DNA of 64,000 nt from an uncultured virus (IMG/VR IMGVR_UViG_3300038853_000032) (IMGVR_UViG_3300038853_000032); one strand, 5' to 3'; positions 1 through 40,585 are shown, counted from the first letter of the stretch. Notes: generated by a model not told the origin, from the letters alone. Numbers and translations are program-made.

Positions 1-335
1 GTATACTTATTATTATTATCCAGATTTTCATTTGCTAAACCGTTTAAAGTCAAAAGAAGTAAAGGATTATCTACAATAACCGTTGTTAAACCATTAGCAA
101 CTGCGTTTACCACAGTTTCCTCACTATTCTTGCCCTTAACAGAGTTGGATAGACCCCAATGCAACCATATTCCGTGGAGTATCTCATGAAGAACAGTATT
201 AAGCTTATTAACAGGATCTTGCAATGAAGCTATTTTAATTTGTTTATCTTGATGAACAAACTGACCTTCAAGATCTTCTGAAGTTTCCTCCACAATCGCA
301 TAGTTCGTATAACCAATTTTAATTTTGTCGATCAT
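1..335 (-). CDS. Phage HExxH metallopeptidase-like protein, 3' end runs off the window
   Basis: Manual translation MIDKIKIGYTNYAIVEE...LNTVLHEILHGIW...EETVVNAVANGL; open to window edge; promoter at 360-388. Confidence 0.65.
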   Translation of the reverse strand, partial: MIDKIKIGYTNYAIVEETSEDLEGQFVHQDKQIKIASLQDPVNKLNTVLHEILHGIWLHWGLSNSVKGKNSEETVVNAVANGLTTVIVDNPLLLLTLNGLANENLDNNNKY

Positions 336-359
336 AATGTCTTTTCTTCATGGTTCTTT

Positions 360-402
360 ATTATAACAAAAAAAGAAGCGAAGAGCAAGATCTTCGCTTC
401 TT
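360..402 (-). promoter_or_regulatory. Sigma70-type promoter (TTGCTC-17-TATAAT) embedded in a terminator-like hairpin
   Basis: -35 at 388-383, -10 at 365-360; 12-bp stem 373-384/391-402 followed by a T tract on the minus strand. Confidence 0.75.
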
Positions 403-447
403 AATTTAATCGCAACGGAGTTTAAAATTTAACTATTACTACTCCTG

Positions 448-624
448 CTACTCTACTAATTGTATCGTCGGTTGCTGAGCAACCTCATAAGGATCAGTAT
501 CTACTTTCCACTCCGCTTCGTTATTCCAATACCCACTCATCGCCGCTTCTTCAGAGGGAGCTTTTATTTCCCATATTGAATCAACTCCGTATGGTTGCCA
601 AATACGCCAAAGTTTCTCACTCAT
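448..624 (-). CDS. Small hypothetical protein (58 aa)
   Basis: Manual translation MSEKLWRIWQPYGVDSIWEIKAPSEEAA...; start overlaps the upstream stop codon. Confidence 0.55.
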   Translation of the reverse strand: MSEKLWRIWQPYGVDSIWEIKAPSEEAAMSGYWNNEAEWKVDTDPYEVAQQPTIQLVE

Positions 625-824
625 ACCTTTTCCTTTAATATACGAATAATTTTAATACTCCGTAAAGGAACTAAAGTAGTGTACGGCGGCTCATCAATCA
701 ATAACGCACTATCGTTAATATCTAGTAACGTCCCAATCGACGTTACATCGTCAGCGATTCGCACATTGATTTCTTGACCAATCGCGTTTTGAAGATTTCT
801 CTTTAAACCTTCTTGTAGTTGCAT
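621..824 (-). CDS. Small Sm/LSm(Hfq)-fold-like protein
   Basis: 67 aa; N-terminal helix then GQEINVRIADDVTSIGTLLDINDSALLI (Sm1-like) and TTLVPLRSIKII (Sm2-like); strong SD. Confidence 0.45.
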   Translation of the reverse strand: MQLQEGLKRNLQNAIGQEINVRIADDVTSIGTLLDINDSALLIDEPPYTTLVPLRSIKIIRILKEKV

Positions 825-836
825 TTTTTTCTCCTC

Positions 837-1100
837 TCAAATAAAAACTGCATTTAAAAACCCAATAAACGTGACGGAACCAGCAATTGCATTTAAAACA
901 ATTAAAGACCTATCGTTCCAAAGACAACCGACTACCATCCACCCAAAACATCCTATACAGGTAATTAACAAGTCAATCGGAATACCAAGCATAGACGATC
1001 TCATAACCAGTCCTGCCATCACAAAAAACGAAGATACCCACTTCAAATACCAACTAACATCAGGTCTATTTGGAGTAACTTTATTTAATCTATTTTCCAC
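837..1100 (-). CDS. Small membrane protein (DUF6552-like)
   Basis: WYLKWVSS...WNDRSLIVLNA, three hydrophobic helices. Confidence 0.6.
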   Translation of the reverse strand: MENRLNKVTPNRPDVSWYLKWVSSFFVMAGLVMRSSMLGIPIDLLITCIGCFGWMVVGCLWNDRSLIVLNAIAGSVTFIGFLNAVFI

Positions 1101-1101
1101 T

Positions 1102-1269
1102 TCAATGAACCGTTGAGCTAACAGATTCGTCCAATAATAAACCTAAATTTTCTCCTAACCACTGAGCATAAGCTTCTGCTTCGTCATTCGAGTCAAACCC
1201 TTTAAAACAAACAATAACTTCTTTTTTATCCACTACAGTTCCAACTGAAAAACTAATTTGTTGTCCCAC
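1102..1269 (-). CDS. Small hypothetical protein (55 aa)
   Basis: Manual translation from GTG after a GGAGG SD: MGQQISFSVGTVVDKKEVIVCFKGFDSNDEAEAYAQWL... Confidence 0.55.
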   Translation of the reverse strand: MGQQISFSVGTVVDKKEVIVCFKGFDSNDEAEAYAQWLGENLGLLLDESVSSTVH

Positions 1270-1407
1270 GAATTCCTCCGTTAAAATATTTGCGCTGTAA
1301 ACTTTTTAATACCACCGCCCAATAATTGACAGCCCACACAGACTGCGCGTTAGTTTTAGTTTTATAAGCGTTTTCCATCAAACGAAGAACGTCCTCATTA
1401 CTTCTTC

Positions 1408-1698
1408 TTATTTCACTAATCTTGTCCATATCTTATAAGGGTCTTCCTTTTCAAAAACATTACTAATTTTATAGGGATAATTACTCTCGTTAAACCCAAG
1501 AACTACCCCTACTTCTTCTTTTAAATTATTCGCCCAAAACTTTGCCATTCGAGTATGCTTACAAGTTCGTCTACGCCATGCAGCTGGACAAGTACAGCCT
1601 CTCGATGATACAGTGTACACATCTAAAGGCTCCTTACTCGACCCAAATTTAGAAATTTGAGTATCTATATTATTCTTTTTCCTAATCAGATACTCCAT
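1408..1698 (-). CDS. SWIM zinc-finger protein
   Basis: CTCPAAWRRRTCKH matches CxCxnCxH. Confidence 0.7.
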   Translation of the reverse strand: MEYLIRKKNNIDTQISKFGSSKEPLDVYTVSSRGCTCPAAWRRRTCKHTRMAKFWANNLKEEVGVVLGFNESNYPYKISNVFEKEDPYKIWTRLVK

Positions 1699-1699
1699 T

Positions 1700-2212
1700 C
1701 TAAAAATTTCCTTCTGCTACTTGGAAAACAAATAATCCTTTAGCACGCCACATATCTACTACAGACTTCCTATCTTCAAACACAATCGTAGGATCATACC
1801 CATCACGACGCATTTTAATTAACATCTGCTCTTTAGCATACACATCCTTCTTAAAATCTAGATCTTTTCTTAGGTACATCGCATCATAAGAAACTTCAAT
1901 ATCATCTAAAAATGCTCTAGTTACCATTAAATAACGGCGCGGTCGCCCAGAACAAATAATAATACGGTGTCCTGCACTCTTCAAAAGACGAGCCATTAAT
2001 ACTACCGAAGGAATCGGAGGATCATTTCTCATAGCTTCATAAAACCCATCCCAATCCTTTGGTTTGTCTTTAATAAAATGTAAACGATGAGTAGCATCCG
2101 CTAATGTACCATCAACATCAAAAATAATATCACGAGGATCGGAATCCATAGTGGAAGTAAAAATAGGATCAGCATTACTTACTGCAAGACTTATTGCTGA
2201 AATATTAGACAT
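1700..2212 (-). CDS. HAD phosphatase, polynucleotide kinase 3'-phosphatase-domain type
   Basis: FDVDGTLAD, CSGRP, FEDRKSVVDMWR, QVAEGNF. Confidence 0.85.
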   Translation of the reverse strand: MSNISAISLAVSNADPIFTSTMDSDPRDIIFDVDGTLADATHRLHFIKDKPKDWDGFYEAMRNDPPIPSVVLMARLLKSAGHRIIICSGRPRRYLMVTRAFLDDIEVSYDAMYLRKDLDFKKDVYAKEQMLIKMRRDGYDPTIVFEDRKSVVDMWRAKGLFVFQVAEGNF

Positions 2213-2237
2213 TTGTTATCTTTCTCATTATAATGTA

Positions 2238-2281
2238 ATTATAACACAAAAAAAGCGGAGAAGCAAGAGCTTTTCCGCTTT
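2238..2281 (-). promoter_or_regulatory. Promoter TTGCTT-17-TATAAT overlapping a terminator-like hairpin
   Basis: -35 at 2266-2261, -10 at 2243-2238; stem AAAGCGGAAAAGC/GCTTCTCCGCTTT plus T tract. Confidence 0.75.
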
Positions 2282-2442
2282 ATCTATAGAAAGGAATACC
2301 ATATCCTGCCATTCAGTTTTGTATAAAAAATCTTTGAAACTTGATTTGATGTACAGTATGCGTCATTCCTAATTTCTATATTTATTATAATCTAAAAATA
2401 AAGTCAGAGCAAGTATAAAATTACAATACTTGCTCACAACGC

Positions 2443-2472
2443 AAAAAAAAGAGGCAATTATAAATTGCCTCT
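2443..2472 (-). terminator. Intrinsic terminator ending the large ncRNA candidate
   Basis: AGAGGCAAT-TTATA-ATTGCCTC followed by T8. Confidence 0.8.
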
Positions 2473-3384
2473 GTGTCAACACAAAGAAAGGTAAACTATG
2501 TTTAAATAAAAATGGGTGGTGGTGGTTAACCCGCCGTCGTGTCGTCCAACCCTCAGACCGCGCCTTTCTGGATGGCAATCCTCACAGTGTTCTAAGTCTT
2601 GTGACTGACTCCGTGTATTTATTGGTAAACACGTCACCCCTGAGAAACTGATTAACCACTGGTCTCAGATCAGAGGTATGTATTCTAACTAAAGTACCAC
2701 TTTAATGTATAGAATTACATATTTCATTTTACCTTATTGGCTGGCTTACATATCTACCTAAGTAGTAATGTAGTACCACTCCATACACTTGGGCTAAAAT
2801 GCTTCAAGAACATTTTTGGAAGGTATGAAAAACCTTAACTCCTAACGAGCTATGAGTTACCACCGGCAGTTTTTTGAGCCTTTCATAAAGTCCAGCTCAG
2901 GCAAACCGCTACCTATTTCAGTTTATTATCAACCCGATAAAAGGTGATACACGGTAAACTGAAAAACCGACTCGCTTAGGCTCCGAAGCAGGGATTCCTT
3001 GGGCTTCTTTTACCTTTCGCGGAACGCCAGTCCCTTGCTGGCTTAATTCGAAGGTTATTTATTCGATTTAAAAACTTCCATTCTAGTCGTATTAAATCCG
3101 ATTGAATGGTAATCGCCTTCTTTAGTCCGATCTGCGTCAATACCTCTACAGATCGCTAGAGTTAGGGTATCTTAACTATACAGGATCGTGCCTGTATTCA
3201 CAGTATCAACTTCCTCTGAAACCTCAGTGAGATTTCGCGCTTGATACGCTCGCACAACCAACTTCACCGAAACTCAATCTGATTGCGTCATTAAAAGTCT
3301 TACGACTTCTCGGAAGGAACTCCGTAATTTCGGCTTCGGTAACTTTTTGCTTGGTGACTACTCACGGTCGCTCAATTACCGTAT
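2443..3384 (-). ncRNA. Large (~940 nt) highly structured non-coding RNA candidate, family unassigned
   Basis: Own promoter (3391-3419) and terminator (2443-2472); no credible ORF; GC above flanks; more than 12 stems visible by eye, one closed by a GUAA tetraloop. Confidence 0.7.
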
Positions 3385-3390
3385 TTTTAT

Positions 3391-3419
3391 ATTATAACAA
3401 AATTTTTATCATTAAGCAA
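3391..3419 (-). promoter_or_regulatory. Sigma70-type promoter
   Basis: TTGCTT(3419-3414)-17-TATAAT(3396-3391). Confidence 0.8.
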
Positions 3420-3461
3420 GATTTTTTTAACATTCGTTATTTTACTTACTGATAAAAATTT

Positions 3462-3665
3462 AATTAACAGAAAGGAGGGAGGCTGTAGCGCGTTCCGTGC
3501 TACCGTTGGATCATTAACCCTTTTTTATCTTGTCACCAGAACTAGTTAGACTAGGTGGGAAGTGGTGTGGGAGGATGATGCCTCTCAATGAATAAAGGAT
3601 TTGCCGAACTTGCAAAGGCTTCGCTGAACTCGCCAAGGACTGTAAAAAACCTGTTATTCACTTAA
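3462..3665 (-). ncRNA. ~200-nt ncRNA candidate
   Basis: Promoter TTGCGT-17-TAATAT at 3701-3673; hairpins such as GUAGCAC/GCGCUAC; CU-rich tracts; no ORF. Confidence 0.45.
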
Positions 3666-3749
3666 TATAATAATATTATCAAAGTTTTAAGCATTACGCA
3701 AGAAAAAAATTAATCTTTTTATTATAATTTAAGAAACTTTTTTTTCACT

Positions 3750-3831
3750 GTATGTAGCCCCCAAACCCGCGACATACTCTGACTCACTTCCACCGTACTA
3801 TTCCTTACGGAACACCTACCAGAGTCTTACC
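3750..3831 (-). ncRNA. Structured RNA motif, copy 1
   Basis: GGUAAG..stem..CC-GUAA-GG..stem..GCGGGUUUGGGGGCUA; promoter TTGCTA-17-TATAAT at 3952-3924. Confidence 0.6.
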
Positions 3832-4120
3832 TGTTTTACCAAATGAAAGAACTTATGCAGTTGCAGTTAAACATGAAAGGGTTTAAACATTACAAAACGT
3901 TTTATCTCTCATTCAGTATATTAATTATATCTAAAATTTAACCTTTTAGCAAGTAAAAAGTGAACTTTTCAGGAAGGATTATGCCAACATAAGTTGATCC
4001 CTGGGGTAAGTTCTAACCTGCCACCTAACGCGATATATGGCCCAACGTTATTAATCCGTATCTACCTTCTTGTATACCATCTTCAGGTCTTTGATGACTC
4101 AAACGGTAGCATTTCCACGC

Positions 4121-4378
4121 CTAATAGTCAACAGCAAAATACTGCTCGTCTAGATAAAGATCAATATACTTCATCGCACTACGAATACTTGCCGCGTCCC
4201 CTCCAGCCTCGAATATATTAGAATCGACAGTTTTCCCGTCCTCTTTATAAATCAAAGTCTGTGGGAACCTTCCATAGAAAGTCATACTAATTGTAAAACC
4301 TCGATAAGGAATTCTAAGTAAAGGTGTTTTCACTTCTTCACCCTTTTCCATATCTATAACTTTTAAAGGCTTACTCAT
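4121..4378 (-). CDS. Hypothetical protein
   Basis: 85-aa ATG ORF with plausible composition. Confidence 0.6.
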   Translation of the reverse strand: MSKPLKVIDMEKGEEVKTPLLRIPYRGFTISMTFYGRFPQTLIYKEDGKTVDSNIFEAGGDAASIRSAMKYIDLYLDEQYFAVDY

Positions 4379-4397
4379 TTTTATCTTTCTATTTTAG

Positions 4398-4478
4398 GCG
4401 CATAGCCCCCAAACCCGCTATACACAATGGCTCTACTCTCAAACTATACCCTCACGGTTTACCAACTAGAACCTTACC
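4398..4478 (-). ncRNA. Structured RNA motif, copy 2
   Basis: Same 16-nt core (4403-4418 = 3755-3770), same GGUAAG spacing, covarying stems, GUGA tetraloop. Confidence 0.6.
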
Positions 4479-4760
4479 AAAAATGTGGGGCTAACAGTAG
4501 CCCCACGCGGATGCGTTACGGCATCACCCGCGACTGCAAGCAGCCGTATTAATGCCAGTCACGAGATTCAGAACTAATTCAAAATTACTCTACCAGCTCT
4601 CTTCTAGTATGATGAAGAGCTCGTGACTAAAAAATAACTTTTTCAGTCAACTGTAGGAGGGGGACTGGCTACCCCTGTAAGTTCACATTTCGCTACGTGA
4701 TGGTGGAGGCCGTGCGTTAGCTGTGATTCCTCATTAAGTTACCTCACACTTAACTCTTAG
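4479..4760 (-). ncRNA. Structured RNA candidate(s) with a pseudoknot and terminator-like hairpin
   Basis: Promoter TTGCTT-17-TATAAT at 4793-4765; 9-bp stem AGUCACGAG/CUCGUGACU; UACGGC/GCCGUA crossing GCGGGUG/CAUCCGC; GUGGGGCUA/UAGCCCCAC plus U tract. Confidence 0.5.
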
Positions 4761-5100
4761 ATTTATTATATAAAATTTTAAAGAAAAAAGCAAGTAAAAA
4801 GTTAATTTTAAAACTATTTTACTTTAAAAGAAAGAAACTTCATTTTCAACCATACCCAGTAATCTGTTAATTTCATCGAACGTACGACTTCTTTTCCTCC
4901 TACTGTTTCTTTAACATAACGAGGAATAAAGCTTTGAGATACTGGAATAGTATTTGAAGTAAACATTCCCTAAATATACTTCAAATTTGCATAAGAGACA
5001 AATTTAAAATTTTTTATTTTAAAATTTAAAGGCAAAAAAATAGACTTTCCCTAGTAGAAAAGCCCAGCTCTCATTATTTTTTTCAATAACAGTAAAAAGA

Positions 5101-5403
5101 TTATTCTTCAATAACAGTTACCCATCCTGATTTAGCCTCCGCATACCGTGCCTCCCACGCATCTCTACAAAAATTATTGTAAGAAGCTTCATCTTTGTAA
5201 TTCTCCACCAAAGTAACGGATTTCTGATCTGCATTTAAATTAGAACTTATAGAAATAAGAAGTCCCCTTGTAATAGCGTTATCAAGAGCCTCTCCAATAC
5301 CACAAGCCGTATTTACATTGTCCTCCCAAAATGCTTCCGCAGAAACATAGGTGGCAGACGGGTTTTTAAGAGATTTTATAGTATATGTTTTAGTATAAGC
5401 CAT
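5101..5403 (-). CDS. Hypothetical protein, last gene of the fibre module
   Basis: 100-aa ORF. Confidence 0.6.
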   Translation of the reverse strand: MAYTKTYTIKSLKNPSATYVSAEAFWEDNVNTACGIGEALDNAITRGLLISISSNLNADQKSVTLVENYKDEASYNNFCRDAWEARYAEAKSGWVTVIEE

Positions 5404-5414
5404 TTTTTAATTCA

Positions 5415-6245
5415 CTATACCGCTACCCACGAATCAGTAGCGTTATCCCAATTATATTTTTTCTTGTCAGACGGGTAATCCACAGGCGGATACCATTTAC
5501 CTACCTTACTTCCATTTAAACCATACCACGTCCCAGCCCCTTCTGTCAATAAAAAGTCATACGCACCATCTAATTCTTCAAAAAGCCACGCCTTATATGG
5601 TTGAGACTTAGCCCATTGAGAATCCCACCAAGTAGGAGGTTCCCAATCACTATCAGAATCTAATGTCCACGCTCCTAAAGGTTTAGGTTCAATTCCTATA
5701 AATACGTCTTTTACTGCATCATAGGTATATCCCACACCAGCATATTGCTTTCTAAAAGCGTGGTTATAAGAAGTTTGCTTCCATACACCGCTTCCGAAAT
5801 GATTAAAACAAAACGTCTCTCCATCCACATGCATAGGATTATCACCTAACGGTCCGGCAGCAGTAGAAATATCCCTTGAAACTGTTACTATTCTTTTAAC
5901 TACATTACTTCCATCTAACTCAGCAAAATGACACATAATCTTCCAAACATCAGGAGAATACCAATCTGGCGGTTCCCAATGACCGTCGTCTTTTAAGGTC
6001 CAAGCTCCTAATGGTTCCGGTTCTGGCTTAATAAACTGATCTTTTGCCGAATCATAAGTATCTCCTCTTCCTGCATAATTCGCTCTAAAACTACGGGTTT
6101 TAGTAGTTTGCTTCCAGGTTCCGCCCCAAAAATTCTCACACCATTTTTCACCGTCAACATGCTTATCAGAAGGTACATGAGCATCATCTACCACACATAT
6201 CCTTATGACTTTATTATTCTCATCCAATTCGGCAAAATACGCCAT
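5415..6245 (-). CDS. Phage tail-fibre-associated protein with a tandemly duplicated domain
   Basis: Two copies of (Y/H)FAELD..N.V.RI..V...HVDGE...WKQT....FR..YAG.G.TYD..KD.FI..EP.PLGAWTL...WEPP. Confidence 0.65.
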   Translation of the reverse strand: MAYFAELDENNKVIRICVVDDAHVPSDKHVDGEKWCENFWGGTWKQTTKTRSFRANYAGRGDTYDSAKDQFIKPEPEPLGAWTLKDDGHWEPPDWYSPDVWKIMCHFAELDGSNVVKRIVTVSRDISTAAGPLGDNPMHVDGETFCFNHFGSGVWKQTSYNHAFRKQYAGVGYTYDAVKDVFIGIEPKPLGAWTLDSDSDWEPPTWWDSQWAKSQPYKAWLFEELDGAYDFLLTEGAGTWYGLNGSKVGKWYPPVDYPSDKKKYNWDNATDSWVAV

Positions 6246-6257: not shown

Positions 6258-7139
6258 CTAATCTTGAAACTGGTATCTAACAATTACTACGCCATCACCA
6301 CCAATACCACCAGAGGTAGCACCGCCGCCACCACCGCCACCACCGCCACCTTTTGCGTCTGTACCTCTACTCCCTGACTGGCCCGTACCTCCTCCTGCAC
6401 CATCCGGATTCCCGTCTCCACCGTCACCCCCACTAGAACCACCGCCTCCGCCACCACCACCATAGTCAACAGAAGAACCTGTAATATCATTACCATCACC
6501 ATTACCACCCTCACCACCAGCACTACCGCCAGAAGCACCCTGACCTCCTGCACCATCAGGAGCAATGCCTCCGCCACCGCCACCACCAGTAGGACCACCA
6601 GTACCACCTTCACCAACACCACCACTCCCAGAACCGCCAGACTGCCCAGGTGAACCGCCCCCACCACCAGGACCACCATCTCCACCAGCATCCTGATATC
6701 CACCACCATAACCGCCCCCTTCAGCAGAAAGAGGAGAACTAAAAGAAGAATCTTGTCCAACTTGCCCAACTGCACCGTGTCCGCCACCAGAACCACCACC
6801 TCCAACAGTGGTTGTGTATGTTCCAACAGTAACCGCTAGCCCAGTCGCTTCTGTTCTTGCTCCGGCACCACCACCGCCCCCACCGTAGTTGGTAGTACCA
6901 CCCTTCATCCCTCCTGTCGACTGACCACCACCACCTCCGCCACCGCCACCTATTATCATATACTCCACTACATTATGAGTTCCATCCGCTGGTCCAACTG
7001 AAGTAACTTCAAAATTACCAGATGAAGTAAATGTGTGAACCTTATAACTACCATCAGTGGCAATAGTTCCACCAGTAGCCTCAACCCAACCAACTGCTCC
7101 TCTTCTTCCTATAAATCGTGGTGCTAATACAAAGGGCAT
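6258..7139 (-). CDS. Glycine-rich domain virion/fibre protein
   Basis: ATGGTIATDGSYKVHTFTSSG...VEYMIIGGGGGGG...GGDGVVIVRY. Confidence 0.8.
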   Translation of the reverse strand: MPFVLAPRFIGRRGAVGWVEATGGTIATDGSYKVHTFTSSGNFEVTSVGPADGTHNVVEYMIIGGGGGGGGGQSTGGMKGGTTNYGGGGGGAGARTEATGLAVTVGTYTTTVGGGGSGGGHGAVGQVGQDSSFSSPLSAEGGGYGGGYQDAGGDGGPGGGGGSPGQSGGSGSGGVGEGGTGGPTGGGGGGGIAPDGAGGQGASGGSAGGEGGNGDGNDITGSSVDYGGGGGGGGSSGGDGGDGNPDGAGGGTGQSGSRGTDAKGGGGGGGGGGATSGGIGGDGVVIVRYQFQD

Positions 7140-7141
7140 AA

Positions 7142-8698
7142 CTATACCTTGCACTTCAAAGTGAAGCGCACTCCTTCCCCAGGTTCCGATGAACCTATCT
7201 GATCAATTTTAAAACTTATGCGATCCCCTGACACAAAAACAGCAGTAGCGCCTAAGGTTCCGGCACTTAATGAAGTAGCGCTTGCAGCAAATTGCGGTCT
7301 TGTAGCATAAATACTTGTACCATTCTTTTCTATGTCTACAATAAGTGCTGCGCCAGTAGGAGCTGTATCAACATACCCCGCTTCCCCAACAACAGTTGCA
7401 GGCCGTGCCATTACAAGTTCACCGTAAGTAGCCGCTGCTACATCTTCTTTAACCATATCAGCATCAAAACCTGCTGTAAAAGCAATATCATAAGGAAGAC
7501 CGCTATAGTTAGTACTATTAAAGTTTTGGGTGTTAGCAACATAAACATTAGCTCCTATGTAAGCGTTACCTTTTACATCCAGATTAGCGCCAGGAACTTT
7601 AGAACCTGCGTAACCAACAGCAATACCTCTGGCAAATTTGACATTTCCTGTCGTGTTGGCACTATAAATTTGTGTAACAGTTCCTGAAGCGGCAGACCCA
7701 ATTCCAATAGAAGTTCTCAGAGTGTCCCCAGATTCAGCTACAGGATCAGTACTTCCGTCTCCAACAATCATTTCACTATCACCAAGAGCACTCATTGCAG
7801 TAATAGCACCTGTCCCACTGCCAAGTAAGACGCCTCCATCGGTTAACGACGAAGCCCCTGTTCCACCGTCACTTACAGGAACGTCGGTTCCTCCTGCTCG
7901 ATAAATAATATTACCCTCTACGTTAATATCACCTGCGCTTGCTCTAGCTACTGTCGTATCAGATGCAGCACCAATATTAACAGCGGTAAATTGGGGACTG
8001 TCCCCGGTACCTACACCAATAGAAGTTCTAAGCGTCGCCCCACTTTCTGCAACTGGATCAGTGGTTCCATCACCAACAATCATTTCGCCATCACCGAGCG
8101 CGCTCATAGCAGTAACAGCACTTGTTCCGCTGCCAAGCAAAACACCGCCGTCTGTTAAAGAGGTAGCGCCTGTCCCCCCACTTCCTACAGCTAAAGCACT
8201 TCCCAAAGTTAAAGTACTTCCTGTAGTTACCGCTCCAGTAAGAGTGGTAGCGCCACCAATATAAACATTATTCTTTACATCCAAATTCGCTTGAGGAACG
8301 CGACCATCAGTATAACCAACTGCTAAACCTCTAGTTACATACGCATTACCAGTTAAATTAGCTGTATAAATAGTTCCTGAAGAAAGAGCGTTAGCTCTCA
8401 TTTTAGCGCCACCTACACTTAAACTACTAAGCTTAGCTTGGGTAATAGTGGCATCACCTACAGTAGCAGTAAGATTAGCTATAGTTGCCTTGGTAACAGG
8501 CTGCCCAAGTTTATTCGTTTTCATAAACTCAACTTCGTCTGTTTTTCCTATACTAACAGACACATTCCCTAAATGAAGAGAATTGGCATCGATATACAAC
8601 TCTTTCCAACGTCGCTGAGGTTTACCAAGTGAAACCGAATTATTGGCGAGGGGAGTAACATTACCTGTTAAAAATCCGGGTCTTCCTATATATGCCAT
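7142..8698 (-). CDS. Tail fibre-like protein with internal repeats
   Basis: MAYIG start, SLG...RWKELY, duplicated GGTGA(T/S)SLTDGGVLLGSGT..., Gly/Ala/Thr/Ser-rich. Confidence 0.75.
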   Translation of the reverse strand: MAYIGRPGFLTGNVTPLANNSVSLGKPQRRWKELYIDANSLHLGNVSVSIGKTDEVEFMKTNKLGQPVTKATIANLTATVGDATITQAKLSSLSVGGAKMRANALSSGTIYTANLTGNAYVTRGLAVGYTDGRVPQANLDVKNNVYIGGATTLTGAVTTGSTLTLGSALAVGSGGTGATSLTDGGVLLGSGTSAVTAMSALGDGEMIVGDGTTDPVAESGATLRTSIGVGTGDSPQFTAVNIGAASDTTVARASAGDINVEGNIIYRAGGTDVPVSDGGTGASSLTDGGVLLGSGTGAITAMSALGDSEMIVGDGSTDPVAESGDTLRTSIGIGSAASGTVTQIYSANTTGNVKFARGIAVGYAGSKVPGANLDVKGNAYIGANVYVANTQNFNSTNYSGLPYDIAFTAGFDADMVKEDVAAATYGELVMARPATVVGEAGYVDTAPTGAALIVDIEKNGTSIYATRPQFAASATSLSAGTLGATAVFVSGDRISFKIDQIGSSEPGEGVRFTLKCKV

Positions 8699-17415: not shown

Positions 17416-17973
17416 TTATTTATAGATTCCAAAACTCAGTGTGATAGAATCCGTAGGATAATATGCTTTATGATTAGTATTTTTTGGAAGATAAACCCAA
17501 TCATTTGTGCCTAAAGAAATCCGGCGTTTTTTAAGTTTAATATCCTTTTTTCCTCGTAAACAGTATATCAAAACACCCATAGGATCTTGATGAAAATTAA
17601 AAGAAAAAGAATTTTTCTTTCCAAAATATATATGACAATCTACTTTTGAAGCACCAAAAGCTCGCTGTAAATTTTCACAAAATTTAATATAGTTATTATT
17701 ATAACTTTCTATATTATTAATTTTAACTAATGATTTTTCTTTTAAAAAACCATACAACTCTGCCACTGAGTGACAATGATGATTAACTAACGAACTATTT
17801 TGTGAAGAATCAATAAAAAATATAGACTCAGTACTAAAATAATTAGGATCTAATATCACATCCTCATAATAAATATCTAAAGACCTGTCAGGAATATAGG
17901 TAGCTTTACCAACTCTATTAACATTAGAAGCAATAGACATTAAAGCTAAAAAACTATTTTTAAAATCTTTCAT
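17416..17973 (-). CDS. JmjC/cupin oxygenase-like protein
   Basis: CHIYFG..SF.FHQDP..VLIY..RGKK...WVYLPK.T.HKA. Confidence 0.75.
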   Translation of the reverse strand: MKDFKNSFLALMSIASNVNRVGKATYIPDRSLDIYYEDVILDPNYFSTESIFFIDSSQNSSLVNHHCHSVAELYGFLKEKSLVKINNIESYNNNYIKFCENLQRAFGASKVDCHIYFGKKNSFSFNFHQDPMGVLIYCLRGKKDIKLKKRRISLGTNDWVYLPKNTNHKAYYPTDSITLSFGIYK

Positions 17974-18886
17974 TATACCAATCTAACAAATGCTTAAATC
18001 CATTACACGAATATGTTAAGTCTTTAACATCTCTCAAATGCTCAGATAAACACGAACCTAAATAATCACATTTAGAACAATACAAATTATTACTCACTCT
18101 TTCTTTTTCCACATCAGTCCACTCTAAATATTCTTCAAAACAATCAAACTCTAAAAAGTACTCGTTATCCTGTTTATCAAACTCTAAAGTAGCGAACTTG
18201 CCAGTAGGAGTTAAATAAACATGACTATCACTAAAGGCGCTCTTATAATAAGAACCGCTTTTGGTAATACTACCTTTAATTAACTTTTCATTAATAAATT
18301 CAAAATTTTTGGGAACCCCACTTGTAATCCACTTAATAACAAACTTTTCGTATTCTGTGTATAAAATATCTTGAGAATTAGCTTGACTAGTAGAATAGGG
18401 TTTAATTTCTACACTTTTAATAGCTGAACATAAGTTTAATTCACTGATCATTTCTTCTACGTTTTTTTTAAGTATACAACGAGAAGCTAAAATTAATACA
18501 GCTAAAGGTTTAGAAGAAAACATCATATTATTAAAAACTAATCTACGTTTTTCTCTGCAATCAAAATCATAACTAACTGTTAAATCAACCCCTTTCCTAA
18601 ATAAAACAGGAACCATTGCAGAAAAATTTGTAATAATATTAATAGAAGAGGAATACTGCTCTAACATAGGTAGCAAAGTATTTAAGTATCTAGAAGGTAA
18701 TAAAGCTATTTCTCCACCGTATAAATCTATATGCGTAATTTCTACCTGTTCAGATACTGACGCTAATCTACTATCAATAACAGTTAAAGGAGTAGTTAGC
18801 CTGTCTGATAACTGAGGTGATGTAAGATAACAAAACTTACATCTAAAATTACAATAATAAGTAGGATTCACACTAACAGTAAACAT
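17960..18886 (-). CDS. Radical SAM enzyme with C-terminal Cys cluster
   Basis: CNFRCKFC, YGGE; CSKCDYLGSC...C. Confidence 0.9.
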   Translation of the reverse strand: MFTVSVNPTYYCNFRCKFCYLTSPQLSDRLTTPLTVIDSRLASVSEQVEITHIDLYGGEIALLPSRYLNTLLPMLEQYSSSINIITNFSAMVPVLFRKGVDLTVSYDFDCREKRRLVFNNMMFSSKPLAVLILASRCILKKNVEEMISELNLCSAIKSVEIKPYSTSQANSQDILYTEYEKFVIKWITSGVPKNFEFINEKLIKGSITKSGSYYKSAFSDSHVYLTPTGKFATLEFDKQDNEYFLEFDCFEEYLEWTDVEKERVSNNLYCSKCDYLGSCLSEHLRDVKDLTYSCNGFKHLLDWYNERF

Positions 18887-19500
18887 TACTGAAAAATAAT
18901 CTCAGACAAAGGAACTGATGGTTTACGGGTAACAAAATTATAAGTCGCATCTACCCATAATTTTAAGCGTTTAGGTTGATAATCCCATATCTTTTTTCTT
19001 TCTCTGTTATTATCTAAAGTTCTAACACAAGACCACGAACAAGGTATATGGCTACACATACGGTGAGGGTCTAAAGGGTACATGGTAATATTAGTATAAT
19101 ACTTTTTAACAAGTTGGGAACGCAATATCTGTTTTTTATATAATTCGTAATATGAAGTTTTAGAATGGGCAGTAGCAAGGTTATTTTTTGAGTAGTTTTC
19201 TACACAACAACTGGGGTATCCTAATATTAAACCTATTTTCTCGTGATCATCGTTTTTCCAAGCCTCTCTAAAAATATCAAAAGAAATACTATAACTCACA
19301 AAGATGGCTGTATCCGATTTATCTTTAAGATAAAAGAGTGGAACGTGAAGTTTTTTACAAAAGTAGACAAAAAGAGGATTAAGAGCAAATCGTGCATCTA
19401 ATAAGCAAGCGGGTTTTTGCTTATTCCCAAACTGAATAAAATCTAAATAATCATGTTTTTTTAATAATAGGTATTTAAGTAAAAAAAGTTTTGGAAACAT
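18886..19500 (-). CDS. DUF483-like protein
   Basis: GLILGYPSCCVENY, HIPCSWSC. Confidence 0.6.
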   Translation of the reverse strand: MFPKLFLLKYLLLKKHDYLDFIQFGNKQKPACLLDARFALNPLFVYFCKKLHVPLFYLKDKSDTAIFVSYSISFDIFREAWKNDDHEKIGLILGYPSCCVENYSKNNLATAHSKTSYYELYKKQILRSQLVKKYYTNITMYPLDPHRMCSHIPCSWSCVRTLDNNRERKKIWDYQPKRLKLWVDATYNFVTRKPSVPLSEIIFQ

Positions 19501-19503
19501 TAT

Positions 19504-20214
19504 TTAATCAAATACCTCCGCGCCATGAATAAGAGCATTATTAATAAAATTATAAGAAAAACCGCAACCACACATTAAAACGTAACGGGAAGTATCTTTT
19601 TGAAAATAATCAAGTCCGTGATGTACAAAAAGAGGATTCATGTTATTTAAGATAATAACCTCATTAGGTTTAGGCTCTATTTCATATACCTCCTCAAAAA
19701 CAGCTTCTTTTGAAATCCTGTCAAAATACTCTTCGGGATAATAATGAGGAATTTGAGTGTTAGAAGAAGTAGTACACTTATCTACCTTGGCCACTCTAAA
19801 AATGCCATTAGGCAGTTCTCCTCCATAAACTAAAATTTGCATAAAAGAAGAATCAAAACCATCCCAATGCCAAGGTATAGAATTTTTTCCCAGAACTTTA
19901 TTTATCATAATATTATAATTATCAAAACTTCCGTATAAAGTTTTCCAAAAAGTAAACTCTTTTCTAGACTGAATAAGAGAAGATAGTAAATCATTATACC
20001 TTGTACAGTTTAAATAATAATCAGAAGTACGATGCGCTATAGGGCCATCCCAACACGGAGAAAAAATATTCTCTACTTTATCGTTTGCAACTTCAAGAGT
20101 ATAATCTTCTTCCTCCATCATTGACAAAAATTGGTTATACATAGTTGGTTCAATATCTAAAGTAGTAAAACCTTTATGAAAATAATCATCTAGTGAAAAC
20201 ATTACAATACGCAA
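19504..20214 (-). CDS. Fe(II)/2-oxoglutarate oxygenase-like
   Basis: PWHWDG...P..NEVIILNN.NP.FVH...RY. Confidence 0.7.
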   Translation of the reverse strand: MRIVMFSLDDYFHKGFTTLDIEPTMYNQFLSMMEEEDYTLEVANDKVENIFSPCWDGPIAHRTSDYYLNCTRYNDLLSSLIQSRKEFTFWKTLYGSFDNYNIMINKVLGKNSIPWHWDGFDSSFMQILVYGGELPNGIFRVAKVDKCTTSSNTQIPHYYPEEYFDRISKEAVFEEVYEIEPKPNEVIILNNMNPLFVHHGLDYFQKDTSRYVLMCGCGFSYNFINNALIHGAEVFD

Positions 20215-20217
20215 TCC

Positions 20218-20763
20218 TTAATCGTGCACAAAACCAAAACTTGTAACAATTCTATCAACATCCAATTTTAAATACTCTACTTTATGCTCCCACATAGAAG
20301 TATGATCTAAAATAACTACATCATATTTAGCAGGGTAAATACACCCCATCTCTTCTTTAGTAAATGCATTTCTTATTTGTAACGCTCCACCAGTTTTTTT
20401 ACTCATGTTACTAAAGTATAAAAGAACTGCTATATTAGAACCTTCTTTAGTATCACTGTGCCACACATCAGTTCCAGGATCTACGCCATTAACAAATCCA
20501 TCATTATCGCCTAAATAGTATTTACCAAAATGTTTCTTAATATATTTTTTACCTACGTACCGATGAGTTTTTACAAGAGAGTTTAATAACCTCTCATTTT
20601 TAGCACAAACTTTAAAACCATCGGTATCGACCCAGGTAATGTTAAAATTCTCTAAATACTTAAAAGATTCCTTATCATTAAAGCGTAAAAAACCTTTAGA
20701 CAAAAGAGGAGTATGATAACGTCTATGCCTAACTGCTTTCCACATTTCAAAATCTTCTAGCAT
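20218..20763 (-). CDS. Fe(II)/2-oxoglutarate oxygenase
   Basis: WHSD..EG...LLYF...GGAL...WEHKV...R. Confidence 0.8.
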   Translation of the reverse strand: MLEDFEMWKAVRHRRYHTPLLSKGFLRFNDKESFKYLENFNITWVDTDGFKVCAKNERLLNSLVKTHRYVGKKYIKKHFGKYYLGDNDGFVNGVDPGTDVWHSDTKEGSNIAVLLYFSNMSKKTGGALQIRNAFTKEEMGCIYPAKYDVVILDHTSMWEHKVEYLKLDVDRIVTSFGFVHD

Positions 20764-21818
20764 TAATTCAGTTTATTTATCCTCATAATATCGGAAGCTA
20801 TTCTCTTCATCTTAACACAGTGTTGCTCTACAACATCAGCCTCTTTTAAGTCTTTAACAGTTTTCCTACAACCATTACAAATACTAAACATAGGACAAGT
20901 AAAACACTCATTTTTTAGACTTACCAAATCTGGATTATCTTGAAGCGGAGTAAAAAACTGCCCTTCCATTTCTTTTTTAAAACTTATAGACTCGTCCTGA
21001 TCATCTCCAAAAGCACCGCAAGAATAGTAATCTCCGCTTGGATTAAAAGCTCTAATTCCCTCGTCGCAGTTGCGGCATTGAGGACAAGAAGTGTTTCCAA
21101 TACTGAGCCTTGTCATCATCTGTTTAGTGTTAAATTCCCAAGGAGCCAGTCCTTCGTTGTAAACTTCTAAATAAATTTCATAAATTTTAGATAACAAATA
21201 AGGATCTTTTTGATCTCCAGAAGCCATAGCGTAGTTTAATTTACACTCAACTCCAACTTTTTCTGATCTATTATAATTATGTAAAGTTCCCTGTGGCTCC
21301 TCAAAATTACTCATTTTTCGTGCCAACTCTACATTTTTAACAGCGAACTGCTCATTACCCTTAGTAATAACAGATATAAAGTCCGGACGGTATCCAACAT
21401 ATTCCAACATAGCATCGGAGCAATACCAAAAATCACTTTCAGTAAATAAACTATAATCTCCTTTAAGCCTGCCATCTCCATAATTAAAAGAAGTAGTAAC
21501 TCCTACTCGTTCATTATCAAACAATGATACCCACTTCTTAGGGTTTTTATAAAACGGCCACAGATTTGTAGTTAAAGCAATAGAAGTAGATAAATTATAA
21601 TTATCTAAATACTCAATAATTTTCCAGTAATAAGAAGGATCAACCATTAAAGGGTCTCCTCCATTAACAATAATTGTTTTAGTCTGCGGAAAACGTTTTA
21701 AAAAACGAAAGATATAATCATGAGATAATAAGTCGGATTTATGAGCAGCGATACGGGTAGAAGAACAAAAAGTGCATTTAAAATTACATAACTCCGTTGG
21801 CTTAATAATGAGTTCCAT
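20763..21818 (-). CDS. Radical SAM/SPASM-type enzyme
   Basis: IKPTELCNFKCTFC, NGGDP; CPQCRNC..YSCG..CFTCPMFSICNGC..C. Confidence 0.92.
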   Translation of the reverse strand: MELIIKPTELCNFKCTFCSSTRIAAHKSDLLSHDYIFRFLKRFPQTKTIIVNGGDPLMVDPSYYWKIIEYLDNYNLSTSIALTTNLWPFYKNPKKWVSLFDNERVGVTTSFNYGDGRLKGDYSLFTESDFWYCSDAMLEYVGYRPDFISVITKGNEQFAVKNVELARKMSNFEEPQGTLHNYNRSEKVGVECKLNYAMASGDQKDPYLLSKIYEIYLEVYNEGLAPWEFNTKQMMTRLSIGNTSCPQCRNCDEGIRAFNPSGDYYSCGAFGDDQDESISFKKEMEGQFFTPLQDNPDLVSLKNECFTCPMFSICNGCRKTVKDLKEADVVEQHCVKMKRIASDIMRINKLN

Positions 21819-22815
21819 GACTGTCCACGTAATCGTACACGTCTTTTAACCAACACTCTTCCTGGGTTCGAGTATCAGACAAGTCATGGCTCAAATAACA
21901 CCCTAAAGAACATCGGCTAAAATGATGACACTCTAAACAATTATAATCTTCCATAAACCTACGTTCCATATCATTCTTATTTCTTTTATATCCCTCATAA
22001 TAACCACCTAGTAAAATCGTACACATTCCCGACCTATTATTCGGTAAAATGGTGTAAGTATCTTGACAACTCATTCTTATTTTTTTACGAGAAAAGTAAT
22101 CTTTGATAGGTAGACAGTCAGGATAATTATCCACTAAGAACAACATTAATTTTTTTAAATCTACATCCTTAGGCATAAATTGTGTTGAATGATTTTCAGG
22201 TGTGTAATAATCAAAATAAATATCAAAATGAGTATATAAATAACCAAAAAAAGGTGTCTCATAAGACAAAAATTTATTAATAGCTGGTTTTGTCATTATA
22301 ACATTAACTGTTCGAATCCAGTGATTAAGTTCTCTTACGTTTTTCTTAAAAACACTAAAAGTTTCGTTATTAAACCGTGAGTGTGGATCATAAGAAGTCA
22401 TTAAATACACACGAGAATCTAATAAAAATAAACGAGCCATCAGCTCGTCCACTCGTTTATAATCCGAAAAAACTAAATTAGTAGTAAATGCGACTTCTAA
22501 AGATATTTCAAACCTGTGAGCCCACTCAAATAAAGAACTTACAAGATCATAGTAATCTTTAAATGTGCTTTTTTCTATTAAATCTGAAAATACCTCACCT
22601 CCCATCAAATGAACAGAAAATTGAGTACGACCAGCTTTTTTTAAATTAAGAATTGCTTTAATAATGTAATCTTTTTTTTCTTTTATATTGTAAAGACCTT
22701 CCCTAGAAGAGTGATCTTGAGGACAAAAGCGACACGCTAAGTTACATTGTTCAAATAGGGTAACAATAATTTCCCCGTTTATAGTTCTTTTTTCAGCGTA
22801 ATCTAATATCTCCAT
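21802..22815 (-). CDS. Radical SAM enzyme with C-terminal Cys cluster
   Basis: CNLACRFC, MGGE; CLECHHFSRCSLGC..C. Confidence 0.9.
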   Translation of the reverse strand: MEILDYAEKRTINGEIIVTLFEQCNLACRFCPQDHSSREGLYNIKEKKDYIIKAILNLKKAGRTQFSVHLMGGEVFSDLIEKSTFKDYYDLVSSLFEWAHRFEISLEVAFTTNLVFSDYKRVDELMARLFLLDSRVYLMTSYDPHSRFNNETFSVFKKNVRELNHWIRTVNVIMTKPAINKFLSYETPFFGYLYTHFDIYFDYYTPENHSTQFMPKDVDLKKLMLFLVDNYPDCLPIKDYFSRKKIRMSCQDTYTILPNNRSGMCTILLGGYYEGYKRNKNDMERRFMEDYNCLECHHFSRCSLGCYLSHDLSDTRTQEECWLKDVYDYVDSHGTHY

Positions 22816-23441
22816 TAGGGAGCGCGGTCCGTTGAAACAATATCCTTTTTAGATTCCCAGTCAACTATACAATTACATACAATTGCCCATCGAGTATGTT
22901 CTCCCAAATAACGAGAAACTTCGTGCCATATATAAGCAGGAGCTGCCACAAGGGTTCCACGAACTGGAACAATAGTTTTCGTTTTTGGACTACAAAAAGT
23001 AATTTGATTAATAAACTTAGGATCATGCAGAAGCAAATCTCCTCCCTGTCCTTGTACTACATCCAAATAAAAAACAGCAAACGCATCTACATCCGAATGA
23101 GAATGGGCGGGTTTATAATCAAACTTTTTCATAGGAGTAATGCGTGACAAAGAGTCAACAGACAAAGAGAAGCTTAAATTATGTCCATGTCGACGTCCCA
23201 ACTCACCAAAAGCGTCAGTAAACATAGCCTTAAGTTCTAATTGCTCTGGAGTACCTTCCTCAAAAACATTAGCATCAGCATCTCCTGCCTCCACATAATC
23301 AATTCCTTTTTCTGCCTTTAATAGCTCTAATTTAGCCTGCATTTGGTTAGCTAAATTAGTATACCAACTATCTTCCAAATCATACTCACGCCAAATAATG
23401 TGAGTTTCAAAAGCAAAAAATGACATATTTTTAATGTGCAT
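22815..23441 (-). CDS. Putative Fe(II)/2OG oxygenase (TIGR02466-like)
   Basis: PAHSH, VFYL...GGDLLLHDP, P.YIWHEV, R.AI..N. Confidence 0.75.
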   Translation of the reverse strand: MHIKNMSFFAFETHIIWREYDLEDSWYTNLANQMQAKLELLKAEKGIDYVEAGDADANVFEEGTPEQLELKAMFTDAFGELGRRHGHNLSFSLSVDSLSRITPMKKFDYKPAHSHSDVDAFAVFYLDVVQGQGGDLLLHDPKFINQITFCSPKTKTIVPVRGTLVAAPAYIWHEVSRYLGEHTRWAIVCNCIVDWESKKDIVSTDRAP

Positions 23442-24746: not shown

Positions 24747-24758
24747 AATTATCTCCTA

Positions 24759-25061: not shown

Positions 25062-25070
25062 TATAACTTT

Positions 25071-39497: not shown

Positions 39498-39528
39498 AAA
39501 AAGTACAACAAAAATAGATATTATTGAT
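39489..39528 (+). repeat. 40-bp direct repeat, left copy
   Basis: GAGAAATAAAAAAAGTACAACAAAAATAGATATTATTGAT, identical to 42201-42240. Confidence 0.9.
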
Positions 39529-39617
39529 ATGATTAACAAAGGTGCTGAACAAGGATTGTGGAAATTACAAGTATAAGATAATGGCTTGGATGAATAAGAA
39601 CTTCACCGAAAGTGAAG

Positions 39618-40506: not shown

Positions 40507-40585
40507 TTCTTTTAATTACCAGGTGCCAACGCTTGTTTCAAGGGAGGGGGGAATAGTGGTGCATTGAGCCAGGGGTTCGAGGGCA

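What the first reader, a model, noticed from the sequence alone, without database searches (positions are those of the whole stretch)
2443..3419. ~940-nt separately transcribed, densely structured ncRNA candidate
Seen: promoter TTGCTT-17-TATAAT, an intrinsic terminator, no credible ORF between them, and many inverted repeats (plus-strand text): ACGGT/ACCGT at the 5' end, AAGTC-ttac-GACTT (GUAA loop on minus), CCGAAA/TTTCGG, GTATCAA/TTGATAC, TACAGG/CCTGTA, CGATCTG/CAGATCG, AGCAGGGA/TCCCTTGCT, TTTCAGTTTA/TAAACTGAAA, GTGAC/GTCAC, and long-range GTGGTTAA/TTAACCAC. Established: phages carry large ornate RNAs such as GOLLD and ROOL. I could not match this one to either from memory, so it may be a divergent member or a new class.
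Basis: partly seen in the sequence, partly recalled or inferred. Interest (0 to 1): 0.85.

Follow-up and report, generated by a model that had tools for sequence, protein, structure and literature searches.

The report
Orphan 940-nt phage noncoding RNA
A marine T4-like phage makes a roughly 940-base RNA that codes for no protein, folds unusually tightly and turns up in ocean RNA samples, but it has no detectable relatives, so its shape and job remain untested.

Summary
On the minus strand a TTGCTT-17-TATAAT promoter (3419-3391) and an intrinsic terminator (2472-2450, U-tract to 2443) bracket about 940 nt with no credible ORF. Its folding energy is exceptional: z = -5.7, against -0.07 to -2.0 for six coding controls. 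No Rfam family matches, even at E<=10.

RNA-library contigs from four studies lie inside it (union 2612-3381). One starts 2-4 nt from the predicted start site. One carries a non-templated tail that fits a minus-sense RNA.

What could not be shown is conservation. BLAST, nhmmer and exact-motif scans found no relative in 44 related phage records, 19 syntenic loci, IMG/VR or GTDB genomes. No covariation test is therefore possible.

The context is informative. The RNA is the last cassette of a 2.9-kb array in which five copies of one promoter drive ORF-free, GC-rich units. Related T4-like marine myophages carry equivalent arrays. They share a conserved upstream RNA ("RNA-B") that shows compensatory base-pair changes, but the cargo behind it varies.

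Best reading: a real, lineage-specific, structured early ncRNA in a PeSL-like swappable cassette. Its function is only inferred.

The parts
3391..3419 (-). Promoter P_A: -35 TTGCTT (3419-3414), 17-nt spacer, -10 TATAAT (3396-3391). The predicted start site is about 3383-3385.
   Evidence: Sequence. It is one of five copies of the same promoter with the same spacing. An RNA-library contig begins at 3381.
2443..3385 (-). RNA-A, the ~940-nt non-coding transcript that is the subject of the finding.
   Evidence: No ORF or coding signal. MFE z = -5.7 against coding controls. RNA-library contigs cover 2612-3297, 2737-3381, 2684-3227 and 2827-3001. No Rfam family matches.
2949..3384 (-). Predicted domain 1, closed by the pairing AUACGGUAA/UUACCGUGU. 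It contains the best-defined hairpins (pair probability 0.85-0.99).
   Evidence: Partition-function fold. This is a prediction only.
2503..2925 (-). Predicted domain 2. Its closing helices are weak (probability 0.1-0.4), but the internal hairpins at 2678-2720 and 2796-2816 are well defined.
   Evidence: No RNA-library contig laid here covers 2450-2611.
2443..2472 (-). Intrinsic terminator: 10-bp stem, 3-nt loop, eight U.
   Evidence: pair probability 0.93.
3395..3466 (-). AT-rich 28-nt inverted repeat lying over and upstream of P_A. It is a stem-loop next to a promoter, which is a PeSL-like layout.
   Evidence: I2.
3440..3670 (-). RNA-B, a conserved upstream ncRNA with its core at 3469-3589. 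Promoter P_B is at 3717-3666.
   Evidence: An nhmmer profile built from relatives hits 3589-3469 at E 1.6e-6. The motif is present in 19 IMG/VR loci. In 16 aligned sequences, 9 of 20 predicted pairs show compensatory changes. An RNA-library contig covers 3479-3653.
3750..3968 (-). Cassette RNA-C. Promoter P_C is at 3968-3924. The ~170-nt ORF-free unit ends in a hairpin with loop GGGUUUGGGG (3785-3755).
4395..4809 (-). Cassette RNA-D. Promoter P_D is at 4809-4770, the ORF-free unit is ~280 nt, and the terminator is at 4506-4485. A conserved block follows at 4478-4395, carrying the second GGGUUUGGGG-loop hairpin (4433-4403).
   Evidence: The block is 88% identical over 85 nt to L028.
4121..4378 (-). 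Small gene (85 aa) embedded in the array. It is absent at the equivalent place in L028.
   Evidence: coding score +0.30.
1700..2428 (-). Downstream neighbour: its own copy of the promoter (2428-2377) and a gene for a polynucleotide-kinase-type HAD phosphatase (2212-1700).

Best explanation
RNA-A is a genuine, separately transcribed, non-coding early RNA of about 940 nt, made from the minus strand of a T4-like marine myophage. It is the last unit of a 2.9-kb array (2213-5100) in which five copies of one sigma-70-type promoter each drive a GC-rich unit, with stem-loops or terminators at several unit boundaries. Most units have no ORF. Related phages keep the array, the promoters and the upstream RNA-B, but carry unrelated cargo in the slot behind RNA-B. 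This is the pattern expected if the repeated promoter/stem-loop modules act as recombination points, like the PeSL cassettes of T4-type hyperplastic regions, here moving RNA genes as well as ORFs.

Shown: the transcription-unit anatomy, the absence of coding, the exceptional predicted folding, the presence in RNA libraries, the orphan status, and the cassette context.

Inferred: the RNA acts through its fold as an abundant, stable early RNA that binds or sequesters a host factor (a ribonuclease, an RNA-binding protein or an RNA-directed defence component), rather than through antisense pairing. I put this mechanistic step at about 0.2-0.25 on its own.
For: - Promoter, terminator and the five-fold promoter repeat.
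- No coding signal. There is no translated similarity to 741 kb of held loci or to the rest of the window.
- MFE z = -5.7, against -0.07 to -2.0 for six coding controls. GC is 0.42-0.46 against 0.27-0.29 in the adjacent spacers.
- Contigs of four RNA libraries from four studies lie within it, with no base differences (one has a 2-nt insertion). One contig starts at 3381, 2-4 nt from the predicted start site. One carries 19 non-templated T before 2737 on the plus strand, i.e. an A tail on a minus-sense RNA, or oligo-dT priming on one.
- The TT insertion seen in one run falls in a predicted unpaired A-run between two helices.
- Equivalent ORF-poor promoter arrays occur in four relatives.
- The cargo behind RNA-B falls into three clusters plus three singletons, one of which is RNA-A.
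- RNA-B shows compensatory changes at 9 of 20 predicted pairs, and a 'type II' cargo at 25 of 47. The slot therefore holds selected RNA structures in relatives.
- No significant complementarity to the rest of the window; best E 0.07.
Against: - No homolog of RNA-A was found, so not one base pair is supported by covariation. The fold rests on thermodynamics alone, and the opposite strand scores as well.
- The population is nearly clonal: L021 is identical over 1-5378. Purifying selection therefore cannot be measured.
- No RNA-library contig laid covers 2450-2611, so the 3' quarter and use of the terminator are unverified.
- Contigs cannot give expression level, and RNA libraries can contain DNA (caveats printed).
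- Non-homologous cargo in the same slot is also what neutral filler would look like.
- The binding or decoy mechanism has no direct evidence.
Confidence: 0.6

Rival explanations
1. Transcribed filler. The sequence is a functionless remnant, such as a decayed or foreign cassette, that sits behind a strong early promoter because of cassette shuffling. Its low folding energy would be incidental to its GC-rich composition and history.
For: No homolog in any collection searched. The slot holds unrelated sequences in different phages, and in L117 it holds ORFs. Both strands fold equally well.
Against: z = -5.7 was computed against dinucleotide-preserving shuffles, so composition is controlled, and it lies far outside six coding controls. 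A dedicated promoter and a strong terminator are both kept. There is no trace of a former reading frame or of translated similarity. Relatives' cargo in the same slot shows compensatory changes.
Confidence: 0.2
2. Precursor RNA. The 940-nt transcript is cut into several smaller stable RNAs, in the way T4 processes its tRNA and stable-RNA cluster (recalled from general knowledge). The functional units would then be the pieces.
For: RNA-library contigs end at different internal places (2612, 2684, 2737, 3227, 3297). One is flanked by adapter sequence at both ends, 2612 and 3297. The predicted fold has two domains with many autonomous hairpins.
Against: Contig ends are not RNA ends (caveat). There are no tRNA-like or known processed-RNA motifs. 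Contigs of 544-686 nt show that long stretches persist in one piece.
Confidence: 0.1
3. DNA-level element. The region would work as DNA: an origin primed by a promoter-driven R-loop, as at T4 oriF/oriG (recalled), or simply a recombination hotspot. The RNA would be a by-product.
For: Dense promoters in an ORF-poor region. The repeated promoters do look like recombination points.
Against: There is no change of sign in cumulative GC skew here. The switch in gene orientation is near 37 kb. A 940-nt stretch that is GC-rich and folds exceptionally tightly is not expected of an unwinding element. No iterons were found.
Confidence: 0.06
4. Divergent member of a known large RNA family (GOLLD, ROOL, OLE, HEARO, raiA, group I/II intron, RNase P), or a protein-coding stretch read in an unusual way.
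For: Its size and its phage context resemble those of GOLLD and ROOL.
Against: cmscan against 4227 Rfam families gave no such match at gathering thresholds, nor at E<=10 with permissive filters. The best row is a terminator look-alike (DapZ, 31 bits against a threshold of 56). Flanking genes read normally in table 11. ORFs inside have negative coding scores.
Confidence: 0.03

Closest known systems
GOLLD and ROOL (large ornate RNAs, often phage- or prophage-borne; Rfam families; cryo-EM multimers reported in PMC12286853, seen only as a search listing and abstract start)
   Same: A phage-borne transcript of several hundred nucleotides, non-coding, with many hairpins and its own transcription signals. 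Function is unknown.
   Different: There is no covariance-model match. No conserved family stands behind RNA-A at all, whereas GOLLD and ROOL are defined by wide conservation and covariation. The tRNA adjacency said to be typical of those families (recalled) is absent here: the nearest tRNA is at 16.3 kb.
PeSL cassettes (promoter-early stem-loop modules) of T4-type hyperplastic regions (PMC4122927, abstract read; PMC2839356, search listing)
   Same: Short composite early-promoter/stem-loop repeats bound variable cassettes in a T4-like myophage. Related phages differ by replacement of what lies between the repeats.
   Different: Published PeSL cassettes carry small ORFs, whereas most units here, RNA-A included, are ORF-free structured RNAs. 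The repeat sequence is specific to this phage clade. Recombination at the repeats is inferred from mosaicism and has not been observed.
RNA-B family
   Same: It lies in the same array, on the same strand, with the same promoter type, and is also present in an RNA library.
   Different: RNA-B is about 200 nt, is conserved in 20 loci counting the window, and shows compensatory pair changes. RNA-A is 940 nt and unique to this lineage.

Membership tests
GOLLD (Rfam) | Match to the family covariance model at or above its gathering score | tested here: not met
   No row for this family at gathering thresholds over the whole window, nor at E<=10 over 2200-5100.
ROOL (Rfam) | Match to the family covariance model at or above its gathering score | tested here: not met
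   No row at gathering thresholds or at E<=10.
OLE, HEARO, raiA, group I and group II introns, RNase P (Rfam) | Match to any of these covariance models | tested here: not met
   None of the 10 rows returned at E<=10 belongs to these families.
Large ornate RNA as a kind (not a family) | Conserved secondary structure supported by covariation among homologs | not testable with these tools
   No homolog was found: GenBank phages; IMG/VR motifs; 44 related records; 19 syntenic loci; GTDB genomes. The only other full copy, L021, is identical.
Large ornate RNA as a kind (not a family) | Folding energy well below that of shuffled sequence and of local coding sequence | tested here: met
   z = -5.7 against -0.07 to -2.0 for six controls; z = -5.1.
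Independent ncRNA gene | Own promoter and terminator, with no ORF between them | tested here: met
Independent ncRNA gene | Evidence of an RNA product of the stated strand | tested here: met
   Contigs of four RNA libraries (four studies) lie inside it. A non-templated 19-T loose end sits before 2737, and one contig starts at 3381. Caveat: these are contigs, not raw reads, so ends and level are not proven.
PeSL-type cassette (T4-like hyperplastic regions) | Repeated composite early-promoter/stem-loop sequence at cassette boundaries | tested here: met
   Five promoter copies with identical spacing. Stem-loops lie upstream of P_A (3395-3466) and of P_B (3785-3755). Promoters are 75-90% identical to those of L028.
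PeSL-type cassette (T4-like hyperplastic regions) | Related phages differ by insertion, deletion or replacement of the DNA between the repeats | tested here: met
   The arrays of the window, G002, G019, G028 and G046 share promoters and some modules but not cargo. Six cargo types lie behind RNA-B.
PeSL-type cassette (T4-like hyperplastic regions) | The host phage is a T4-like myophage | tested here: inconclusive
   The exonuclease is 38-40% identical to the one beside gp33 in T4-like cyanophages. There are PHROG hits to pelagiphage and cyanophage proteins, and relatives carry a phoH-like gene end (read from the alignment). No capsid or tail hallmark gene lies in the window.

The most novel reading that the evidence does not exclude
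RNA-A is the first seen member of a new class of large (~0.9 kb), fold-dependent phage RNAs. More broadly, T4-like marine myophages carry a previously undescribed system: arrays of promoter-bounded, exchangeable ncRNA cassettes. Each array has a conserved 5' module (RNA-B) followed by a hyper-variable structured cargo. The system would be an RNA counterpart of the protein-coding hyperplastic regions, used early in infection for host take-over or counter-defence.
Probability: 0.3. Interest if true: 0.8.

Novelty: new variant of a known kind. Interest (0 to 1): 0.6.

Why it matters
Large structured phage RNAs are few (GOLLD, ROOL) and their functions are unknown. This is a candidate of similar size that appears in ocean RNA libraries from four studies. 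The stretch that carries it is held by DNA runs of nine studies, leaving out the one that may be its source.

It also sits in a genomic device that seems to swap RNA genes the way T4-type phages swap small early ORFs. If that is real, it widens the known repertoire of phage accessory functions from proteins to interchangeable RNAs.

The work also supplies a conserved, covariation-supported handle (RNA-B) with which to find such arrays.

If RNA-A proves to be filler, the result still matters as a caution: a very low folding-energy z-score plus transcription is not enough to call an ornate RNA.

Tried and rejected
1. Known RNA families. Rfam at gathering thresholds over the whole window and at E<=10 over 2200-5100 gave nothing relevant.

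2. Coding. PHROG and Pfam scans at E<=1 of 16 small ORFs in 2369-5403 gave only chance-level rows. tblastx of RNA-A against 741 kb of held loci and against the window gave a best E of 0.15-0.87.

3. Homolog hunts, all negative for RNA-A:
   - GenBank phages by blastn.
   - G001, the nearest IMG/VR fragment.
   - Loci around relatives of the phosphatase gene: 20 loci, not syntenic.
   - Loci around relatives of the 276-aa gene: none in IMG/VR. The metagenome scan gave L021 (identical), L022 (ends at 3665) and L023 (no array).
   - Three exact motifs in IMG/VR returned only chance seeds, and one in GTDB genomes returned nothing.
   - BLAST over 44 related phage records gave one 32-nt chance row.
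   - blastn and nhmmer over 19 RNA-B-bearing loci.
   - nhmmer profiles of type I and type II cargo.
   - Local alignment against four cargo RNAs: z of -0.3 to +0.4.

4. This scan's own earlier findings: nothing on record.

5. Parts of 1200-6200 without RNA-library cover (1200-2201, 2245-2611 and 4420-6200). Contig depths (220, 56, 14 and 3.6 for RNA-A, against 3.8-7.9 for RNA-B and the 85-aa gene) cannot rank expression.

6. Population variation. L021 has no difference in 1-5378, and L022 has 11 differences in 3665-5420, none of them informative for structure.

7. RNA-B motif in GTDB genomes: none, so there is no sign of a host origin.

9. Literature. Searches for phage or pelagimyophage ncRNA arrays found no description. 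PMC7029224 has no occurrence of 'noncoding' or 'non-coding'. These searches cover only the held open-access library.

10. Not attempted:
   - A single-sequence covariance model of RNA-A sub-domains. Models are limited to 400 columns, and power from one sequence would be low.
   - A search of the large protein databases with the spurious ORFs.

Full report
**What is there.** Window 2213-5100 is a 2.9-kb stretch with almost no ORFs in an otherwise densely coding phage sequence. All its signals are on the minus strand.

- Promoter: -35 TTGCTT at 3419-3414, a 17-nt spacer, and -10 TATAAT at 3396-3391.
- Terminator: a 10-bp stem at 2472-2450 followed by eight U.

That gives a transcript of about 940 nt, which I call RNA-A.

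The consensus scanner did not list the promoter, because TTGCTT matches TTGACA at only 3 of 6 positions. It is nevertheless one of five copies of a single phage promoter with identical 17-nt spacing. The copies are at 2428-2377, 3419-3391, 3717-3666, 3968-3917 and 4809-4758.

**Not coding.**
- The three minus frames carry 18, 20 and 26 stops, and the longest open stretch is 62 codons.
- I trained a hexamer coding score on 24 long genes of the window. The seven ORFs scored inside RNA-A get -0.38 to -0.01. Eight held-out real genes get +0.08 to +0.48.
- Sixteen small ORFs of the region gave no meaningful PHROG or Pfam hit at E<=1.
- tblastx of RNA-A against 741 kb of fetched phage loci and against the rest of the window found nothing below E 0.15.

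**More structure than chance.**
- The MFE is -275 kcal/mol, with z = -5.7 against dinucleotide-preserving shuffles.
- Six 936-nt coding segments of the same window gave z between -0.07 and -2.0. The tool's own estimate for RNA-A was z = -5.1.
- GC is 0.42-0.46 inside RNA-A, against 0.27-0.29 in the spacers beside it.
- The opposite strand folds equally well (z = -5.4), so folding does not give the strand.
- The partition-function fold suggests two domains. Domain 1 (3384-2949) is closed by a long-range helix and holds several hairpins with pair probability above 0.85. Domain 2 (2925-2503) is less certain. All of this is prediction.

**Transcription.**
- Twenty public runs from 13 studies hold the 2213-5100 stretch or part of it. 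Six are RNA libraries from four studies, and four DNA rows may be the source sample.
- I laid one RNA run from each of those four studies on 1200-6200. Each has a contig inside RNA-A: 2612-3297, 2737-3381, 2684-3227 and 2827-3001. None has a base difference.
- One contig has a TT insertion after 2869. That position lies in a predicted unpaired A-run.
- The 2737-3381 contig comes from a poly(A)-type library. Its upstream end, 3381, is 2-4 nt from the predicted start site.
- The same contig carries 19 non-templated T before 2737 on the plus strand. That is an A tail, or oligo-dT priming at the A-rich run there, on a minus-sense RNA.
- This is positive evidence for an RNA of the proposed strand. 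Because these are contigs, neither the level nor the true ends are shown, and nothing laid covers 2450-2611.

**Not a known family, and no relatives.**
- Rfam (4227 models) gave nothing at gathering thresholds. At E<=10, the best row is a terminator look-alike.
- One metagenome contig (L021) is identical over window 1-5378. A second (L022, 97.9% identical) ends at 3665.
- I reached the phage's clade through its exonuclease gene (30612-31271). That gave 45 IMG/VR loci at 35-100% identity.
- BLAST of RNA-A over 44 of those records found only one 32-nt chance match. Two of the 44 are at least 90% complete.
- Three exact motifs in IMG/VR and one in GTDB genomes gave only chance seeds or nothing.
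- Profiles and alignments against the relatives' RNAs were also negative.
- The closest relatives (82-83% exonuclease identity) are fragments that do not reach this part of the genome, judging from the coordinates.
- RNA-A is therefore an orphan in everything I could search, and no covariation test is possible.

**The context changes the picture.** On the minus strand the 2.9-kb stretch reads as follows:
1. P_D, then a ~280-nt ORF-free RNA with its own terminator.
2. A conserved block ending in a hairpin with loop GGGUUUGGGG.
3. An 85-aa gene.
4. P_C, then a ~170-nt RNA ending in a second copy of that hairpin.
5. P_B, then RNA-B.
6. An AT-rich stem-loop, then P_A, RNA-A and its terminator.
7. 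Another copy of the promoter, then the phosphatase gene.

A relative found through the hairpin motif (L028, in record G002) has an equivalent 2.7-kb ORF-poor array. It carries at least seven sites of the same promoter form, of which the consensus scan lists five. Its proteins are 55-63% identical to the window's.

Three more relatives (G019, G028, G046) have arrays that are 75-80% identical to one another.

**RNA-B is conserved.**
- RNA-B (window core 3589-3469) is found by a profile built from the relatives at E 1.6e-6.
- Its motif is present in 19 IMG/VR loci and in no GTDB genome.
- In 16 aligned sequences, 9 of 20 predicted pairs show compensatory double changes.

**The cargo behind RNA-B varies.**
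- What follows RNA-B falls into three clusters plus three singletons. RNA-A is one of the singletons.
- One cluster ('type II', 9 sequences) shows compensatory changes at 25 of 47 predicted pairs.
- In another locus the slot holds ORFs.
- So the array encodes selected RNA structures, the slot after RNA-B is hyper-variable, and the boundaries are the repeated promoter/stem-loop modules.
- This matches the PeSL cassettes described for hyperplastic regions of T4-type phages (PMC4122927, abstract read; PMC2839356, listing only). The difference is that most cargo here is RNA.

**What kind of phage.**
- PHROG hits, an exonuclease related to the one beside gp33 of T4-like cyanophages, and a two-piece tmRNA point to the marine T4-like pelagimyophage/Melnitz-like group.
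- A phoH-like gene end flanks the relatives' arrays, which points the same way.
- Two-piece tmRNAs are reported to be common in that group (PMC9004378, passages read).
- A genome survey of pelagimyophages does not mention non-coding RNAs (PMC7029224, term search).
- My other literature searches found no description of such arrays. They cover only the held open-access library.

**How it most likely works.**
- Shown: RNA-A is a discrete early-promoter unit, non-coding, with exceptional predicted folding, present in RNA libraries, lineage-specific, and sited in a cassette slot.
- Inferred: it has no significant complementarity to the rest of the window. Accessory early cassettes of T4-type phages are thought to serve host adaptation. 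I therefore think it acts through its fold, most plausibly by binding or titrating a host factor early in infection.
- I give about 0.85 that it is a real ncRNA transcript, about 0.5 that its fold is functional, and about 0.2-0.25 to the sequestration mechanism itself.
- The main rival is functionless transcribed filler (0.2). Lesser rivals are a precursor of smaller RNAs, a DNA-level element, and hidden membership of a known family or hidden coding.

**Verdict.** The wider result may be the more valuable one: ncRNA cassette arrays with a conserved, covarying RNA-B in a clade of marine myophages. Interest 0.6.

Noticed in passing
window 3440-3670 (-), core 3469-3589; also L104-L122: RNA-B is a ~200-nt ncRNA family that is not in Rfam. 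It is conserved in 19 IMG/VR loci plus the window. It has a long-range stem (GCAUCAU/AUGAUGC and CUGG/CCAG alternating with CCGA/UCGG), a hairpin with loop ACGGAA, and a pyrimidine-rich tail. Nine of 20 predicted pairs show compensatory changes. The motif is absent from GTDB genomes.
   Followed up: partly
L105, L108, L109, L111, L113, L115, L118, L119, L122 (downstream of RNA-B): 'Type II' cargo is a ~330-nt conserved structured segment in which 25 of 47 predicted pairs carry compensatory changes. It ends in a GCGGG...GGGGCU-loop hairpin. A further conserved ~190-nt unit follows it.
   Followed up: partly
window 3755-3785 and 4403-4433 (-); L028 4990-5020: A repeated hairpin with the conserved loop GGGUUUGGGG and a variable stem. 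It lies at the 3' end of units, just before the next promoter or gene. A related loop occurs in the type II relatives. It may be a processing, terminator or protein-binding site.
   Followed up: partly
window 41638-41696 (+): A type II hammerhead ribozyme candidate scoring 35.8 bits against a gathering score of 37 (E 8e-6 in a 351-nt search). The CUGAnGA and GAAA core and a GUC site are aligned. It lies at the 5' end of ORF 41622-42104.
   Followed up: partly
window 39482-42240: A GC-rich island (GC 0.45-0.61, against about 0.33 around it) is bracketed by direct repeats: 47 nt at 39482 and 42194 (94% identical) and 85 nt at 39608 and 41529 (91% identical). This looks like an insertion or duplication. 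It holds a Sel1/TPR-like repeat gene whose middle is masked by N (40137-40235).
   Followed up: partly
window 42884-43241 (+): A two-piece (permuted) alphaproteobacterial-type tmRNA gene in a phage, with tag ANDNEAFEEYALAA. This is a known feature of the phage group (PMC9004378).
   Followed up: partly
window 6300-7000 (-): Nearly all divergence between the window and the near-identical contigs L021 and L022 is concentrated in the glycine-rich protein gene 6258-7154. This is probably a host-recognition hot spot.
   Followed up: no
window 17960-26111 (-): Four paralogous radical-SAM genes (phrog_1802) lie within 8 kb, among sugar-modification genes.
   Followed up: no
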